64,000 nucleotides of DNA from a virus, in the IMG/VR virus record IMGVR_UViG_3300031867_000025, positions 6,150 to 70,149 of that record; one strand, written 5' to 3'. This document shows, one piece after another, positions 508 to 6,759 of the stretch. Numbering within the stretch: the stretch's first letter is position 1; each line of letters starts with the position of its first letter. The translations under genes were made by a program, and so were the position numbers. The notes below the pieces were generated by a model. The model was not told the origin of the DNA. It did not search any database and was given only the letters and a program-made list of their open reading frames with translations.

Positions 508-3500
508 TTGGGTTATATAGATCATATTATAAAAGATGATATTAGAACGGACCTATTTTCATAGCTATTGGCTAAAGATATTGCAGAAATTTTTGATCCA
601 CAAAATAGATATGAGATAGATGATTATTGCATATATAACACTAAACTTTATAGATTTATTAAATTCCATTCAGGGGATTGGGCAGATGCGGATGTTATTG
701 AGATATCCGTAGGAAGAGAAATGAAAACTTTTTCTACTCAAACAGCTACTATGAATGGAACATTAAGTAGTAATAGTCAAGATATTAATAATTTAAAAAC
801 TCAAGTTGATACTTTAACAAGTAATGATGAGGGTATGGATCAAGATATTGATGATTTAAAAGATGAAATGAATACTTTGTCTAATGGTTTAAAAGGTAAG
901 GCAGATACTTTTAGAGTTGGGGAAGACCAAAGAATTTATATTTATTCTGGTGATGAACTTCTTACTGCCATAGGTCCTTTTAGCGGCGGAACTGGTGGCG
1001 GCGGAGGTAGTGGTGAACCTACTAACACTGCAGAAATGACCTTTACCAATACAACAGGTTGGATTACTTCAACAATTTCCGCATCAGGAACTTGTAATAT
1101 TTCGTTTGAATGGTCTTCAATTCAGGAAAATACTCCTACTGGAGATGGGTCTTTAACAGTTTATGTTAATAGTGTAAGTAGAATAACTAGAGGTATTGCA
1201 CAAGGTTCTGTGTCCTTTGATGTTTCTAGCTATTTAATTCCAGGACGAAATTTAATTAGATTAGCAGTATATGATACTTATGAAAATGTAAAATATCAAA
1301 ACTATACTATATCTGTGGTTGATTTACAAATTCGTTCTTCTTTTGACTCTTCTGTTCCTTTTACGGGAGAATTTTTATTTCCTTATACGCCAGTTGGAGC
1401 AGTAGAAAAGACAGTGCATTTTTTAGTTGATGGAGAAGAGATAGGAACAGAAATAACATCTGTAACAGGGAGGCAATTATCTTATACAATTCCTGCGCAA
1501 AGCTATGGTTCTCACTCACTAACTGTTTATTGTGATGCAGATGTAGCTGGAGAAATTATTAAATCTAATACATTGTATTATGAATTTATTTTTATTGATG
1601 GGTCAAGTACTAGAACTACTATTACAAGTTCTTTTGCGGAAACATCAATTAAACAATATACTACTGTAAATATTCCTTATAGAGTATATTCACCGTTATC
1701 AGCTAATGTAGAAGTAAAATTATATGTTAATGGATCTTTAATTTCTACTCAAACTGTTAATAGAGATGAACAAAGTTATAGTTATAGAGCAGAAGAGATT
1801 GGAAATATTATATTCCGTATTGAAGCTAATAATACTACAAAAGATATTGAATTTGAAGTTACTTCAGGTGATATTGATATTAAACCAGAAACAAATGATT
1901 TGGTATTATATCTTACTGCGCAAGGTAGAAGTAATAATGAAAATACACGAGACGTATGGAAATATGAAGATACTCAAGCGACTTTTTCTAATTTTACGTG
2001 GCGGTTAGATGGTTGGCAGTTAGATGATGATAATATTTCTGTCATGAGAGTACAAGATGATGCACGTATTATTATTCCTTATAAAATATTTGAACAAGAT
2101 TTTAAAGGAACTGGAAAAACTATTGAAATAGAATTTGCTACTCATAGTGTAGTAGATTATTCCGCAGTAATAGTAAATTGTATGTCAGGTAATATAGGTT
2201 TCCAAATTACTCCTCAATCGGTTATTTTTAAAGGTGCTCAAACTTCTATTCAAGCATTATATAAAGATAATGAACATGTGAGAGTATCTATAGTAGTAGA
2301 AAAACAGATTGATAATAGATTGATTTGTGTATATATTAATGGTATTATGTCTGGTGCGATTCAGTATGCAAGTGGTGAACGTTTTAGTCAATTAACACCA
2401 ATGAATATTTTAATTGGTTCTGATGATTGTGGAATTGACATTTATAATATTCGTGTTTATGATAATAACCTAAATAGAATGCAAATTGTAGATAACTGGA
2501 TTGCCGATACTCAAATTGGTGAATTAATGATTCAAAGATATAATCATAATGATATTTATAATCCTAATATGGAAATTACTACGGAAACATTACCTAGTAA
2601 TTTACCTTATTTTATTCTTGACGCAGAAGAATTGCCTCAATACAAAGGAGATAAGAAAAAAATTTCATTAACATATGTTGATCCTATTATTTCTTCTAAG
2701 AGCTTTACTGCATCAGGAGTAGAGATTGATGTACAAGGAACTTCTTCTAGTATTTATTACTTTAAGAATTTTGACTTAAAATTTAAACAAGGTTTTCAAA
2801 CAAATAATGGAACCGTTGATGGATATATGTTAAGAAATAATTCTATTCCTTTTAATAGATTTGTATTAAAAGCAGATGTTGCTTCTAGTGAATCTGCAAA
2901 TAATACTGTTTTATCTATGTTTTATAGCGATTCTGATCCTTATAAAGTACCAGAACAAATTGAAGATCCGAGAGTAAGACAAGGTATCGAAGGAATTCCT
3001 GTCGCTGTATTTTGGCATAACACAAAAACCGAAGAAATTAAATTTCATGGAAAATATAATTTCAATTTACCGAAACGTGCAGCAGCACCTTATGGCTATG
3101 ATGGCGATGAAGAGTCTTGGGAATTTGAAAGAAATAATTCAGCAAATATGAAATTTCAGGATGATGATTTTGAAACTCAAGCATGGGATGAAGTTAATCA
3201 AAAGTTTTATCCTGAATGGTATGATGACTGGTAGGCACGTTTTCCTTCAGATGAATGGAGAGATATTTCTAAATTAAAAGAATTTGTATCCTGGGTAAAA
3301 TCGACATATAGAGATGCCGCCACAAATGAGAATTTATCTAACCAAGTTACTTATACACTTAATTCTACTATTACTGTTGATAATTATCCAGACGATAAAA
3401 GCTATACTGTAACAGATGGAACTGGTGGTTCTAAAGTTATTACATTTACAAAAGATACTCCTGCTTATAGATTAACAAAATTTAAAGCGGAAGCTAGTAA

Positions 3501-6500
3501 GTATATGGAATTAGATAGTGCTTACTATTATTATTTATATACATTAATGTTTTTAATGATTGATTCACGTGCAAAGAATATGTTTATTGGTTTCCATGGT
3601 GGAGAAGCTACTGAATTGATCAATGAAGGCAGCGCAATTGATAGAAAAGTTGTTTTTGAACCATATGATATGGATACTGCTATTGGAACAAATAACTCTG
3701 GTGTTTTGATGTTCCCATATCACTTACTTGATATTGATACTGCTTCCGCAGTTATTAGTGGTAGTGGTTCGGAAGCCCCAGTTTATAATGCTCAAGATTC
3801 TGTATTGTGGTGTAATATTAGAGATGCATTCCGCGCAGAATATACTGCAATGTATCGGAATTTAAGAGCCAATAGAGTATGGACTTATCAAGGTATTGAA
3901 GATTTATTTGAAAATCATCAAGCAAAATGGCCAGAAGCTATGTATAATGAAGATGCGTATGAAAAATATTTAGTTCCATTAATCGATCCTGTTACAAAAG
4001 ATGAAACAACTGGGCAGTTAATTAGAACAGATAGATATTTGACAATGCTTCAGGGTAGTAAAGAACAACAGAGAAAATGGTGGTTATCTAATCGTTTTAG
4101 ATATTTAGATAGTATGTTTTCTTCAGGAGATGCTGTTAATAATACTATAAATTTACGTTTATTTAATGCGGGGACACTATAGATTACGCCTGCTATTGAT
4201 TTATTTGTTGGTGTATCATTTGGTGGAGGTACTACTCCTGCTATTGCTAGAACTACCGCAAATCACCCGGCTAGTTTTTCTTATAGTCCAAAATCTGGAG
4301 TTACAGAAATGGAAACTTGGATATATTCTGCGGATTTAATTACGGATGTTGGTGATTTATCAGGATTTTATCCTAATGAAATAGATTTTAGTAAAGCTAC
4401 TAAGTTACAAAATTTAAAGATTGGTAGCGGAGAGCAAGGATATTCAAATACTAATTTACGCGCTCTTAATGTACAAAATTGTTTGCTACTTGAAAATATT
4501 GATGTAAGAAATTGTCCTAATTTAGCAATTAATGTTAATTTAGAGAATTCAACTAGATTAAAATCAGCTTTATTTGAAGGAAGTTCTATTACTGGTGTTG
4601 ACTTAGCGGATGGCGGTGTTTTAGAAACATTACATTTACCTGCAACAGTTGCTCAGTTAACATTATTAAATCTTTCTAAATTGAGTGATTTACAAGTTGC
4701 TTCTTATTCTAATATTACTAGATTAATGATTGCTAATATGAATCATTTAATTAATCCTCAAACAATTTTAGGACTGGTTCCTGCTAATACTGAAATTAAT
4801 ATTGTTGGAATTGATTTAACTTATGATACTTATGAAGAGATAGATGCTTTTTATGATTTATTAGATACTATGAAAGGTATTACTCGTTAGAAGAATTCTG
4901 CAGGGGAATGGATGTATCATAATTTTGATAAAGCTCAAGTAAGTGGTGTTATTAGAATTTAGTCTTTAACGGGTGCTCAAGTGGCTGATTTAGAGGCTAG
5001 ATATCCAGAACTTGATGTTATTGCTAATCATACAACTTCTTATAGATATTATAAGAATTATGATGGTACTGTTGATATAGGTACAGTTAGATGTATAGAT
5101 GGTGTGCCTGAAAGTGCTGCTCCCGCAGTTCCTAGTAGAACATCAACAACACAATACTCTTATGCTCCATTAGGTTGGGATAGTGATATGGATAGTTATA
5201 ATTCTAATTATAATCATAATGCTATTACTAAAGGAGATACGGTATGGTATGCCGCCTATACACGTACAGTACGCACATATACAATCACGTGGGTGAATAA
5301 TGGAACTACAATCGAAACTGATACGAACGTCCCGTATGGTGCAACACCTCAGTACAATGGTGCAACGCCTACAAAAGACGGTCAGACAAGCACAGGTTGG
5401 ACACCGACACCTACGACTGTTACGGGGAATGCGACGTATACGGCGACGTATCTGCCTAGCTATTCCGTCAAGTTCTACAATGGTTCGACACTGCTTTATA
5501 CTGACACTGTAATTCAGGGCGGTACAGCTAGCTACAGTGGCTCAACGCCTGTAAACAGTGAGGATAGTTCTCTTGCGTTCATTGGGTGGGGTGCTAGTAG
5601 CAGCTCAACGAATGCTGATGCGGTGCTGACGAATATTCAGAGTAATAAGTCGGTGTATGCGGTGTTTGAAACTGGTATGCCTAAAGCGCCCACAGCAACG
5701 ACAGCAGACGGTGCATATGGCGTTGAATGGGATTATAGTCAGTCTAGTCCACAGCTTACACGTAAAGGACTTGCGGCAAGTTTCGCTGACCCTGTGCCCG
5801 CAACAAGCGTATCTGGAACTGGTTCTAGTCCTTTCGATAATATTCAGCCTTGGGCAGGGATGAAAGAAGTCAATATTCTTTCTGACGGAACTATCATTGA
5901 AAAGAGTGATCCCAGATTCAGCTACACTGACAATGATGTAATGGTTTGGATACCCGAATTCTATTACACTGCTTATAAAGACGAGACTAATCAGAAGTGG
6001 TTATGGGCTATCAGTCCGACAGCTAAAACAGGATTTGAAAAACATCCGGGTTCTGGAAGATATATTAGTAAATATTTTGCATCTGATGTTTCCGATGAAA
6101 TGGTTTCCAGGTTTGGAACAGATCCTCTTGTTGGTACGAGCAGTGGTCCTATTACAGCAAGATCAAAATGTTCGCAAAAAGGCAATAATTGGTATATGTT
6201 AGATATTGCTACATGGTCTGCACTGCAAATGCTTTACCTTATAGAATTTGCAAATTTCGATAGTCAAACTACGCTTGGGATTTCAGGAACCATCGCATAT
6301 ATTAATGAATCTTATCATACAGTTAAAGCAACTAAAACATCAGATGAAAATGTTTACAGGCATATAATATTCCCGATTTCTGGAAAAACTATTTTTATTG
6401 ATGGTTTACAAGCTAGCCAACAAGGTATTTTTATTGGTATTGATAATGCATCATTTGATAATAAGTATTCTGCTTTGTTCAAAGTTGGTAATTTAAAACT

Positions 6501-6759
6501 GCCAAGTAGAGGGTATATATCAGGTTTTGGATATAACGAAATATCATCTTGGGCTTTCTTACCGGATATGTCTTCTGGAACAGAGTCTACATTTGTATGT
6601 GATAGGGTATTCTCAAACGCAAATACTCGCTTCCCGCTATCATCTGGTGGATCGACAAGCGGATATAGCAATTTCGGATTTTTCTTTTTCTCTGCAGTTA
6701 GTAATAGTGGAACAAATGATGACGGTATTCGTTTAATATATATTCCTAGCACCAACTAA
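508..6759 (+). CDS. Giant tail fibre / receptor-binding protein of about 2080 aa, TAG-recoded
   Basis: The track ORFs 568-3234, 3505-4182, 4309-4890 and 4981-6759 are all in frame 1. They are separated only by TAG codons at 3232, 4180, 4888 and 4960, and there is another TAG at 562; no TAA or TGA occurs until 6757-6759. A TTG start at 508 follows the RBS AAAAAGGAGGT. The protein has a poly-Gly linker (GGTGGGGGSGE), is rich in T, S, N and Y, and has the repeat noted above. A 10-bp stem hairpin at 6766-6792 acts as terminator. Confidence 0.6.

What the first reader, a model, noticed from the sequence alone, without database searches (positions are those of the whole stretch)
508..6759. TAG is read as a sense codon in many genes, so the standard-code ORF track is badly fragmented
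Four track ORFs in the same frame join into one 2080-aa fibre gene, separated only by TAG codons. Elsewhere the count is about 11 in-frame TAGs in TerL, 6 in the GIY-YIG HEG, 8 in NlpC/P60 and 6 in the gene at 56190-56651, plus two small genes in the tRNA array. Conserved motifs continue cleanly across the TAG codons. TAA and TGA still terminate. At least 20 genes in this window are mis-called or invisible under code 11. The precedent is code 15 (TAG read as Gln) in crAss-like phages. In the NlpC/P60 gene one TAG aligns with the third polar catalytic residue, which fits Gln but does not prove it.
Basis: partly seen in the sequence, partly recalled or inferred. Interest (0 to 1): 0.85.

Follow-up and report, generated by a model that had tools for sequence, protein, structure and literature searches.

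The report
Phage reads TAG as glutamate

Summary
TAG is an in-frame sense codon in about 20 genes of the window: the 2084-codon tail/fibre gene, TerL, portal, a sigma-like factor, an NlpC/P60 lysin and others. TAA and TGA still terminate. A tRNA with anticodon CUA lies at 18220-18294(-). The proposed meaning, code 15 (TAG=Gln), does not hold. In codon-level alignments of six gene families with related contigs, TAG occupies 20.6% of cells in conserved-Glu columns (110 of 144 columns) but 0.4% in conserved-Gln columns (4 of 69). In TerL, Glu+TAG is constant (44-51, against 47-48 in standard-code relatives), while Gln stays at 22-25. Cultured standard-code homologues have Glu at TAG positions, including invariant Glu residues. 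In the same alignment, the TAGs of Phass-1 (published as TAG=Gln) that have aligned homologues sit on Gln-containing columns, one of them near-invariant Gln, which serves as an internal control. The suppressor tRNA is not Gln-like: it has C1-G72 and A73. Database proteins of this clade were translated with Q at TAG. I found no report of TAG=Glu in phages. Who charges the tRNA is inferred only, and no proteomics exists.

The parts
508..6759 (+). Large tail/fibre-like protein gene (about 2084 codons) with in-frame TAGs at 562, 3232, 4180, 4888 and 4960. It ends at TAA.
   Evidence: Searches show the single open frame. Searches show homologues that are contiguous across the TAGs. The TAG at 3232 aligns with invariant Glu (GAA 13, GAG 2). 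The TAG at 4888 aligns with Glu in the 3 closest homologues. The TAG at 4180 aligns with Thr in 14 of 15, and 4960 sits in a variable column; phrog_24896 and phrog_14959, plus C-terminal phrog_5302 'tail protein'. No Pfam hit.
18220..18294 (-). Suppressor tRNA with anticodon CUA (ARAGORN labels it 'Pyl' only because of the anticodon). Acceptor stem C1-G72, G2.U71, C3-G70, C4-G69, C5-G68, G6-C67, A7-U66; discriminator A73; 11-nt D-loop; CCA not encoded.
   Evidence: Rfam tRNA, 62.8 bits; cloverleaf fold. The same tRNA occurs in related 134-144 kb contigs L028, L042 and L043, and a variant in L111.
20982..21057 (-). Ordinary phage tRNA-Glu (UUC). The window encodes no tRNA-Gln.
60319..62070 (+). 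Terminase large subunit (YonF-like), 11 in-frame TAGs.
62508..64000 (+). Portal protein, cut off by the window end, 2 TAGs.
   Evidence: (phrog_2739, 5.5e-64)
62133..62501 (+). Small conserved gene between TerL and portal, 2 TAGs.
56803..57933 (+). Sigma-factor-like protein with a C-terminal zinc/HNH-like region. It has 9 TAGs, four of them in the first 40 codons and one as codon 2.
   Evidence: phrog_5767, 9e-45. One search shows that the N-terminal TAGs lie in conserved coding sequence and are E in the standard-code relative L013.
56190..56651 (-). Unknown 154-aa gene with 6 TAGs.
   Evidence: no family hit
57973..58794 (+). N-terminal part of the YonG-like gene, 3 TAGs.
   Evidence: matches the single 407-aa ORF L002 1246-2487. 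PF27269 YonG_N in relatives.
58952..59755 (+). GIY-YIG/NUMOD3 homing endonuclease inserted in the YonG-like gene, 5 TAGs.
   Evidence: (NUMOD3 2.9e-19; GIY-YIG 2.2e-4, just under the Pfam cut-off)
59814..60353 (+). C-terminal part of the YonG-like gene, 3 TAGs.
23991..24443 (-). NlpC/P60 peptidoglycan hydrolase (probable lysin), 7 TAGs. One aligns with the third catalytic residue.
   Evidence: (PF00877, 7.5e-11)
36786..38305 (+). Two genes of unknown function, 36786-37196 and 37496-38305, with 3 and 6 TAGs.
   Evidence: no family hits
1..435 (+). 3' end of a gene that runs off the window start, 4 TAGs.
7239..10824 (+). Small plus-strand genes downstream of the fibre gene. 7239-7724, 9405-10082, 10082-10402 and 10405-10824 carry 1-2 TAGs each. 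7738-9391 is TAG-free.
24722..36841 (-). Block of genes with essentially no in-frame TAG, none ending in TAG (single TAGs only in two doubtful calls, 27076-27324 and 29357-29632, and 2 in 26308-27111). It includes the MVP-like and Thg1-like genes and can be read under either code.

Best explanation
The window is part of a roughly 135-150 kb SPbeta-like siphophage of rumen/gut Bacillota. It uses a stop-codon-recoded genetic code in which TAG means glutamate.

Shown by the sequence and alignments:
- TAG is used as a third Glu codon. In 19 recoded genes there are 74 TAG, 73 GAG and 325 GAA.
- The recoded genes include the structural, packaging and lysis genes and a sigma-like gene.
- About 50 other genes contain no in-frame TAG and never end in TAG, so they can be read under either code.
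- TAA and TGA remain stops.
- The phage encodes a tRNA with anticodon CUA.

Inferred, not shown:
- This tRNA is charged with Glu by a host glutamyl-tRNA synthetase. It stays Glu-tRNA because it lacks the U1-A72 pair and short D-loop that, from the literature as I recall it, the Glu-tRNA(Gln) amidotransferase GatCAB requires.
- TAG-containing genes can be translated only once the tRNA has accumulated. TAG is 3.4-fold enriched in the first 50 codons, and the sigma-like gene has TAG as codon 2. Recoding would therefore gate late gene expression, as proposed for TAG=Gln and TGA=Trp phages.
For: 1. Codon-level alignments of six gene families (window 56.8-64 kb against loci L001-L021). TAG fills 510 of 2471 cells in conserved-Glu columns (110 of 144 columns). 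The figures for other conserved columns are Gln 5/1225 (4 of 69 columns), Lys 8/3254, Asp 11/2362, Leu 14/2815, Tyr 0 and Trp 0. Fisher test on columns: p=2.6e-24.
2. At the window's own TAG columns, the majority residue in relatives is E in 20, D in 3, I in 2, and A, H, T and Q in 1 each.
3. TerL composition: E+TAG is 44-51 in seven recoded sequences, against E of 47-48 in the TAG-free relatives L010 and L013. Q is 22-25 against 20.
4. Cultured standard-code homologues (Enterococcus H1, Geobacillus E3, Alicyclobacillus KKP_3916, Brevibacillus Sundance, Bacillus FADO, Lactococcus AM1) have E at TAG columns. These include columns where all standard-code homologues have Glu, such as the 'F-x-R-E-Y' Glu; the Glu of 'GGKEQ' is Glu in most of them. 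Pooled over pairwise alignments, E is 46% (background 8.4%) and Q is 2.9% (background 3.8%).
5. Internal control. In the same TerL alignment, the two Phass-1 TAGs that have aligned homologues sit on a near-invariant Gln column (the Q of 'GGKEQ') and on a Gln/Glu column. Phass-1 was published as TAG=Gln (PMC10607447).
6. At all 17 near-invariant Gln columns of TerL the window has Gln (Q), never TAG.
7. The fibre TAG at 3232 aligns with Glu in 15 of 15 homologues.
8. A suppressor tRNA(CUA) is present. Its acceptor stem and discriminator (C1-G72, A73) and its 11-nt D-loop differ from the phage clade's own tRNA-Gln (U1-A72, G73, 9-nt loop) and resemble its tRNA-Glu (A73, 11-nt loop, C3-G70 to G6-C67). 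A variant with the same acceptor stem (L034) is closest to tRNA-Glu.
9. TAG is enriched near the 5' end: 34% of TAGs lie in the first 50 codons, against 13-15% of GAA and GAG (p=4.8e-5). The N-terminal TAGs lie in conserved coding sequence.
Against: There is no protein-level evidence; everything rests on comparative sequence. The isotype of the tRNA body is ambiguous. Similarity ranking gives Met, Gln and Glu about equal for the window tRNA, and the nearest annotated GenBank phage tRNA is a tRNA-Trp. No synthetase, amidotransferase or release-factor gene was found among the window ORFs scanned, including every called gene of 300 aa or more, so the charging step is pure inference. The host is unknown; the only hint is that relatives were binned into Erysipelotrichaceae MAGs.

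A minority of TAGs sit at non-Glu positions: fibre 4180 aligns with Thr, and 4 Gln-majority columns hold a TAG. Among very close pairs of sequences the sample is small, with TAG differing from GAR at 13 columns and from CAR at 5, all of the latter in variable columns. Cells in the column counts are phylogenetically non-independent. The split into 'early' and 'late' genes rests on few functional annotations.
Confidence: 0.85

Rival explanations
1. Code 15. TAG is read as glutamine through a Gln-type suppressor tRNA charged by GlnRS, as in crAss-like, Lak and Phass phages.
For: This is the only TAG reassignment described for phages in the literature I could search. Public gene callers translated this clade's TAGs as Q. 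Four Gln-majority columns contain one or two TAGs. E-to-Q is a conservative change.
Against: If TAG were Gln it should alternate with CAA and CAG, but it occupies 0.4% of cells in Gln columns against 20.6% in Glu columns. Q+TAG would inflate Gln to 33-44 per TerL, against 20 in TAG-free relatives, whereas E+TAG matches them. Columns where all standard-code homologues have Glu carry TAG in up to 5 of 7 clade members. The tRNA lacks U1-A72 and G73. The Phass-1 control shows the method does recover Gln where Gln is the meaning.
Confidence: 0.04
2. Ambiguous decoding. The suppressor tRNA is charged with Glu by a non-discriminating GluRS and partly converted to Gln-tRNA by GatCAB, or is partly mischarged by GlnRS. 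TAG would then yield a Glu/Gln mixture, with selection placing TAG where Glu is wanted and Gln is tolerated.
For: From general knowledge, many Bacillota make Gln-tRNA by the indirect route, so Glu and Gln charging are biochemically linked. A few TAGs lie at Gln or variable columns. The tRNA body is not clearly of one isotype.
Against: TAG is common at Glu positions that no standard-code homologue varies, where a sizeable Gln fraction should be harmful. The tRNA has C1-G72, not the U1-A72 that I recall GatCAB using as its recognition element. This point was not tested.
Confidence: 0.08
3. No reassignment. The TAGs are real stops in decaying or fragmented genes, assembly or sequencing errors, or low-level readthrough sites. 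Alternatively, TAG encodes something else such as pyrrolysine, Lys, Leu, Tyr or Trp.
For: ARAGORN labels the tRNA 'Pyl'. The coding-coverage gain under TAG-sense (0.69 to 0.84) is matched by a meaningless TAA-sense control (0.85).
Against: Dozens of independent contigs share TAG at homologous positions in essential genes such as TerL, portal and tail genes, with full-length conservation across them. TAG almost never occupies Lys, Leu, Tyr or Trp columns. TAG is never the terminal codon of the TAG-free genes.
Confidence: 0.02

Closest known systems
TAG-recoded phages using genetic code 15 (TAG=Gln): crAss-like and Lak phages, and the related Phassvirus group (phAss-1, OQ749652)
   Same: TAG is in frame in structural, packaging and lysis genes. 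TAA and TGA remain stops. The phage encodes tRNA(CUA). Other genes are TAG-free. No phage aaRS is evident. The genomes lie in gut or rumen microbiomes. Phass-1 shares the TerL family (41% identity) and even the identical 17-nt anticodon arm (L059).
   Different: The amino acid differs: Glu here, Gln there, and both are visible in one TerL alignment. The suppressor tRNA body differs too. Here it has C1-G72, A73 and an 11-nt D-loop, whereas Phassvirus has a Gln-like UGGGG...CCCC-G73-CCA tRNA. Borges et al. state that they observed only TAG to Gln and TGA to Trp.
Peritrich ciliate nuclear code (NCBI table 30; TAA and TAG = Glu). Recalled from general knowledge, not checked here.
   Same: TAG is decoded as glutamate by a tRNA with a stop-complementary anticodon.
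   Different: That code is a eukaryotic nuclear, genome-wide code in which TAA is also Glu. Here TAA terminates, the code belongs to a virus in a presumably standard-code bacterium, and it applies to only a subset of genes.
TGA=Trp (code 4) recoded phages, such as the 'Agate' and 'Jade' clades of Borges et al.
   Same: Late-gene-biased stop-codon recoding in 120-200 kb phages of Bacillota from animal guts. Close standard-code relatives exist (here L010 and L013, with TAG-free TerL).
   Different: A different codon and a different amino acid.
SPbeta-like phages (Bacillus SPbeta yon/yom genes; Enterococcus phages H1/EF1, Geobacillus E3, Brevibacillus Sundance)
   Same: TerL is YonF-like, at 31-45% identity to the TerLs of these cultured phages. 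Relatives show YonG, YonD, YonB, YomW, YomV and YomU Pfam families in the same order. Genome sizes are 130-150 kb.
   Different: The cultured members use the standard code.

Membership tests
Stop-codon-recoded phage (TAG reassigned, phage-encoded suppressor tRNA) | In-frame TAG in conserved, full-length essential genes | tested here: met
   TerL has 11, portal 2 and the fibre gene 5. Homologues are contiguous across the TAGs.
Stop-codon-recoded phage (TAG reassigned, phage-encoded suppressor tRNA) | The other two stop codons still terminate | tested here: met
   All ORFs end at TAA or TGA, and the TerL end coincides with its homologues.
Stop-codon-recoded phage (TAG reassigned, phage-encoded suppressor tRNA) | tRNA with anticodon CUA encoded by the phage | tested here: met
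   18220-18294(-), found by ARAGORN and Rfam. It is conserved in related contigs.
Stop-codon-recoded phage (TAG reassigned, phage-encoded suppressor tRNA) | Recoding is concentrated in late, structural and lysis genes, and other genes are compatible with both codes | tested here: inconclusive
   TAG-rich genes are the fibre, TerL, portal, YonG-like, NlpC/P60 and sigma-like genes. About 50 genes have no in-frame TAG and none ends in TAG. Most TAG-free genes have no known function or timing.
Genetic code 15 (TAG = Gln) | TAG aligns with Gln in homologues and alternates with CAA/CAG | tested here: not met
   4 of 69 Gln columns against 110 of 144 Glu columns. Q is 2.9% against a 3.8% background in standard-code homologues. 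The Phass-1 control does meet this feature.
Genetic code 15 (TAG = Gln) | Suppressor tRNA of Gln type (U1-A72, G73) | tested here: not met
   C1-G72 and A73. The identity rules come from the literature as I recall it, and no isotype-specific model was available.
TAG = Glu code (only precedent: peritrich nuclear code 30) | TAG aligns with Glu and alternates with GAA/GAG; Glu+TAG is conserved | tested here: met
TAG = Glu code (only precedent: peritrich nuclear code 30) | TAA is also read as Glu | tested here: not met
   TAA terminates most genes in the window.
TAG = Glu code (only precedent: peritrich nuclear code 30) | Glu is actually incorporated at TAG (protein evidence), and the tRNA is charged by GluRS | not testable with these tools
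   This needs mass spectrometry or aminoacylation assays.
SPbeta-like siphophages | YonF-type TerL with YonG, portal, YonD and YonB synteny | tested here: met

The most novel reading that the evidence does not exclude
A clade of abundant rumen/gut SPbeta-like phages uses a genetic code not previously described for any virus or prokaryote: TAG = glutamate, with TAA and TGA as stops. It is implemented by a distinctive tRNA(CUA). It arose separately from the TAG = glutamine code of the related Phassvirus group, which shares the same TerL family. Phages would therefore be able to capture one stop codon for different amino acids, and the GlnRS/TrpRS 'susceptibility' explanation for phage recoding would be incomplete.
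Probability: 0.8. Interest if true: 0.85.

Novelty: new variant of a known kind. Interest (0 to 1): 0.8.

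Why it matters
1. It would add a new natural genetic code (TAG=Glu) to phage and bacterial systems. The field currently recognises only TAG=Gln, TGA=Trp and TGA=Gly there.
2. It shows that the default practice of translating every TAG-recoded phage with table 15 is wrong for a whole clade. All 120 nearest TerL entries in the 5.8-billion-protein database carry 4-15 Q residues in mixed Glu/Gln columns, where the DNA I checked shows the Q to be translated TAG. 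About one Glu codon in six is TAG in the recoded genes. This distorts annotation, structure prediction and proteomic searches.
3. Two related phage groups use the same codon, and even the same 17-nt anticodon arm, for different amino acids. That offers a natural experiment on how tRNA identity determines codon meaning.
4. A natural Glu-inserting amber suppressor tRNA would interest people working on genetic code expansion.
5. TAG as codon 2 of a sigma-like gene, together with the 5' enrichment of TAG, makes the 'recoding gates late expression' hypothesis directly testable.

Tried and rejected
- Coding density as proof of recoding. TAG-sense raises coverage from 0.69 to 0.84, but TAA-sense gives 0.85 in this AT-rich sequence, so I did not use it as evidence.
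- Amino acids in database homologues at TAG columns. The Q counts are circular, because those proteins were called with code 15. Only the non-Q residues and the DNA were used.
- tRNA isotype by sequence similarity. Ranking against 332 tRNAs from the fetched loci with the anticodon arm masked, and BLAST against GenBank phages (best hit tRNA-Trp at 78.8%), were both inconclusive for the window tRNA.
- A search for a non-suppressor paralogue with the same 3' half found only CUA versions.
- The anticodon-arm search returned 51 loci, but they have unrelated tRNA bodies, so it is not a marker of this clade.
- Very close sequence pairs gave too few independent columns to discriminate.
- Pfam on the fibre gene gave no hit. 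PHROG and Pfam scans of about 40 ORFs found no aaRS, GatCAB or release factor.
- Rfam found no group I or II intron around the GIY-YIG insertion.
- Looking up the window's own contig by exact protein failed, so the rest of the genome could not be inspected.
- Pyrrolysine, Lys, Leu, Tyr, Trp and Ser readings are rejected on the column counts.
- An alternative tRNA register that would give U1-A72 and G3.U70 is rejected, because it breaks U8 and the two-nucleotide spacing between the acceptor stem and the D-stem.

Full report
OBSERVATION. With only TAA and TGA as stops, the frame is open from 505 to 6759(+). It contains five TAGs, at 562, 3232, 4180, 4888 and 4960. The four standard-code ORFs listed (568-3234, 3505-4182, 4309-4890, 4981-6759) are pieces of this one frame. 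Twenty-seven IMG/VR loci encode homologues, and those at 60-66% identity align without a break across the four internal TAGs. A PHROG family match spans the TAG at 3232, and the C-terminus hits a 'tail protein' family. Pfam finds nothing.

Elsewhere I count 11 TAGs in TerL, 9 in a sigma-factor-like gene, 7 in NlpC/P60, 6 in the gene at 56190-56651(-), 5 in the GIY-YIG/NUMOD3 endonuclease and at least 2 in portal. TerL identity rests on PHROG phrog_2 spanning residues 33-478, on tblastn hits at 31-45% identity to cultured SPbeta-like phages, and on 120 full-length homologues at 74-86% identity.

A crude greedy gene call gives coverage of 0.69 under the standard code and 0.84 with TAG as sense. 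A TAA-sense control gives 0.85, so density alone proves nothing in this 30-40% GC DNA. The homology evidence is what confirms the observation. A tRNA with anticodon CUA lies at 18220-18294(-), inside an array of 21 tRNA genes.

WHICH AMINO ACID. In the first alignment against database homologues, the TAG columns held mostly E and Q. The DNA of two of those homologues showed that every TAG had been translated as Q by the source's gene caller (19 in P0003 and 10 in P0056). The Q counts are therefore circular, and the informative residue is E.

I then worked at codon level. In TerL from 12 contigs, 40 alignment columns contain TAG, and the other codons in them are overwhelmingly GAA and GAG (pair counts: GAA 524, GAG 230, GAT 88, CAA 28). 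I extended this to six gene families from window 56.8-64 kb (sigma-like, both YonG-like halves, TerL, the small gene and portal), each aligned with 14-24 homologous ORFs from related contigs. Results:
- Conserved-Glu columns: 110 of 144 contain at least one TAG, and TAG fills 510 of 2471 cells (20.6%).
- Conserved-Gln columns: 4 of 69 contain a TAG, and TAG fills 5 of 1225 cells (0.4%).
- Other conserved columns: Lys 8/3254, Asp 11/2362, Leu 14/2815, Ser 6/1630, Tyr 0/1986 and Trp 0/348.
- Fisher test on columns, Glu against Gln: p=2.6e-24.
- At the window's own TAG columns, the majority residue in relatives is E in 20, D in 3, I in 2, and A, H, T and Q in 1 each.

TerL composition tells the same story. 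E+TAG is 44-51 in seven recoded sequences and 47-48 in two related TAG-free sequences (L010, L013). Q stays at 22-25 against 20. At all 17 near-invariant Gln columns of the 120-homologue alignment, the window has Gln (Q), never TAG.

Cultured standard-code phages gave an independent test: Enterococcus H1, Geobacillus E3, Alicyclobacillus KKP_3916, Brevibacillus Sundance, Bacillus FADO and Lactococcus AM1. At 39 clade TAG columns they show E 79, D 25, N 22, S 20 and Q 12, against backgrounds of 6.8% for E and 3.8% for Q. Several of these columns are Glu in every standard-code homologue, such as the Glu of 'F-x-R-E-Y', which is TAG in 5 of 7 clade members. The Glu of 'GGK-E-Q' is Glu in most homologues and is also TAG in 5 of 7. 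Pooled over 283 BLASTP alignments of 97 ORFs, TAG aligns with E in 46% of positions that have conserved neighbours and with Q in 2.9%.

For the fibre gene itself:
- TAG 3232 aligns with Glu in 15 of 15 homologues.
- TAG 4888 aligns with Glu in the three closest homologues.
- TAG 4180 aligns with Thr in 14 of 15.
- TAG 4960 lies in a variable column.

INTERNAL CONTROL. Phage Phass-1 (OQ749652) has a TerL 41% identical to the window's. It was published as TAG=Gln on the basis of alignment and tRNAscan-SE (PMC10607447). In the very same alignment, the two Phass-1 TAGs that have aligned homologues fall on the near-invariant Gln of 'GGKE-Q' and on a Gln/Glu column. In pairwise counts its TAGs align with Q in 45% of positions and with E in 36%; the E counts come from the Gln/Glu column. 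The method therefore recovers Gln where Gln is the meaning, and two related phage groups use TAG differently. In 'GGKEQ', the window clade puts TAG on the E and Phass-1 puts it on the adjacent Q.

THE tRNA. The tRNA folds as a canonical cloverleaf with these features:
- Acceptor stem: C1-G72, G2.U71, C3-G70, C4-G69, C5-G68, G6-C67, A7-U66.
- Discriminator A73, with U8 and A14 present.
- A 3-bp D-stem with an 11-nt D-loop, and a 5-nt variable loop.
- No encoded CCA.

The identical tRNA occurs in 134-144 kb IMG/VR contigs (L028, L042, L043). Those contigs share the neighbouring DUF2828 gene with the window. They also carry a tRNA-Gln(UUG) that looks like a standard bacterial tRNA-Gln (U1-A72, G73, 9-nt D-loop) and a tRNA-Glu(UUC) with A73, an 11-nt D-loop and the same C3-G70 to G6-C67 core. 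Variants in L034, L040 and L111 keep the acceptor stem while other arms change, and L034 is closest to tRNA-Glu. For the window tRNA itself, similarity ranking cannot separate Met, Gln and Glu, and the nearest annotated GenBank phage tRNA is a tRNA-Trp. I can therefore say the tRNA is not Gln-like. I cannot show that GluRS charges it.

From what I recall of the literature, bacterial GatCAB selects tRNA-Gln through U1-A72 and the D-loop, and non-discriminating GluRS tolerates changes at position 36. On that basis the most economical model is that a host GluRS charges this tRNA and that it escapes transamidation. That is inference. No synthetase, amidotransferase or release-factor gene was found among the window ORFs scanned, which include every called gene of 300 aa or more. 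The remaining roughly 75 kb of the genome could not be examined.

DISTRIBUTION AND LIKELY ROLE. In 19 credible recoded genes the Glu codons are GAA 325, GAG 73 and TAG 74. About 50 other called genes, including the 24.7-36.8 kb minus-strand block, have no in-frame TAG and never terminate in TAG. They can be read under both codes, which is the pattern Borges et al. describe for early genes. TAG is enriched in the first 50 codons: 34% of TAGs, against 13-15% of GAA and GAG (odds ratio 3.4, p=4.8e-5). In the sigma-like gene, TAG is codon 2 and four TAGs lie within 40 codons, inside sequence conserved in relatives and encoded as Glu in the standard-code relative L013. This fits, but does not prove, a gate in which late functions are translated only once the suppressor tRNA is present.

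WHAT THE PHAGE IS. Relatives show YonG_N, YonD_N, YonB, YomW, YomV and YomU Pfam families around TerL, so this is an SPbeta-like siphophage. Related contigs are 130-149 kb. Three MAGs from a rumen collection contain close relatives, and two of them are labelled Erysipelotrichaceae. This is only a weak host hint.

COMPARISON WITH WHAT IS KNOWN. Stop-codon recoding in phages, with suppressor tRNAs and a late-gene bias, is well described. The papers I could search describe TAG=Gln, TGA=Trp and TGA=Gly. [quoted passage not shown] Cook et al. and a 2026 jumbo-phage survey treat TAG-recoded phages as code 15. Searches combining phage, TAG and glutamate/Glu/glutamic acid found no report of TAG=Glu. 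The library holds only open-access papers and bioRxiv, so absence there is not proof of novelty. The only TAG=Glu code I know of is the peritrich ciliate nuclear code (table 30, from memory), in which TAA is also Glu. I therefore class this as a new variant of a known kind.

CAVEATS.
- There is no protein evidence.
- Cell counts are not phylogenetically independent, although the column counts and the cultured outgroups point the same way.
- A minority of TAGs lie at non-Glu positions.
- Partial Glu/Gln ambiguity cannot be excluded.
- The charging mechanism and the host are unknown.
- The true start of the fibre gene, and so the status of the TAG at 562, is unresolved.

Noticed in passing
window 30752-33226 (-); also 53827-54819 (-) and 11182-12669 (-): An 825-aa phage protein matches the eukaryotic Major Vault Protein shoulder domain (PF11978, 3.4e-26) and a vault repeat (PF17795). 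An SPFH/Band_7 protein and a DUF2828+DUF7788 protein are also encoded. The DUF2828 gene is conserved next to the tRNA array in relatives.
   Followed up: no
window 29809-30693 (-): A Thg1 / Thg1-like 3'-5' nucleotidyltransferase (PF04446, 5.5e-30) is encoded near the 21-gene tRNA array, which includes two tRNA-His(GUG) genes. It might act on the 5' ends of phage tRNAs.
   Followed up: no
window 57973-60353 (+): The YonG-like gene is split. 57973-58794 and 59814-60353 both match one 407-aa ORF of relatives (L002 1246-2487), and a GIY-YIG/NUMOD3 homing endonuclease (58952-59755) sits between them. Rfam finds no group I or II intron there, so whether this is an intron or a genuinely split gene is unresolved.
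   Followed up: partly
51 IMG/VR loci L022-L072 (e.g. L059 258-426, L026 1716-1801, L025 1226-1394): The exact 17-nt anticodon arm GCGGTCTCTAAAACCGC is shared by amber-suppressor tRNAs with very different bodies: Gln-like UGGGG..., 86-91-nt forms with a long insertion or variable arm, and the window type. They lie on contigs of 5-310 kb. This points to convergent optimisation or modular exchange of the arm, and possibly to further TAG meanings.
   Followed up: partly
L028 2898-2972 (related 133,873-bp contig): A tRNA with anticodon UUA (ochre-suppressor-like) sits about 1.3 kb from the CUA suppressor, although TAA appears to terminate genes in this clade.
   Followed up: no
window 39150-53500, minus-strand gene region: At least 17 copies of an approximately 50-80 bp unit occur. 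Read on the minus strand it is TTGACA, a spacer, TGTTATAAT, then AAAGAAAGGAG, that is a sigma-70-type promoter plus RBS. Each copy precedes a small gene (families D4, D5, D7).
   Followed up: partly
window 50251-50697 and 52038-52324; scattered pairs 39154-52412: Tandem arrays with a 20-bp period are built from the palindromic motif AGTTAG-N-CTAACT (about 22 and 14 units). Single or paired copies lie upstream of many of the promoters (families D1-D3, D14, D16). They look like binding-site arrays for a repressor, partition or origin protein.
   Followed up: no
P0001-P0120 (public protein clusters), L001 4050-5789, L003 10001-11743: Public database proteins of this clade were translated with TAG=Q. 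Each of the 120 TerL entries carries 4-15 Q residues in mixed Glu/Gln columns, where the Q is probably a mistranslated Glu.
   Followed up: yes
L010 1744-3483, L013 10001-11740: Related contigs at 67% TerL identity have no TAG in TerL or in the sigma-like gene, so standard-code relatives exist close to the recoded clade.
   Followed up: partly
L094 (= contig of L111), fibre homologue alignment column 825: In a more distant contig that carries a variant of the suppressor tRNA, one fibre TAG aligns with a conserved His (CAT/CAC in 11 of 15). This is unexplained; it may be a substitution or a misalignment.
   Followed up: no
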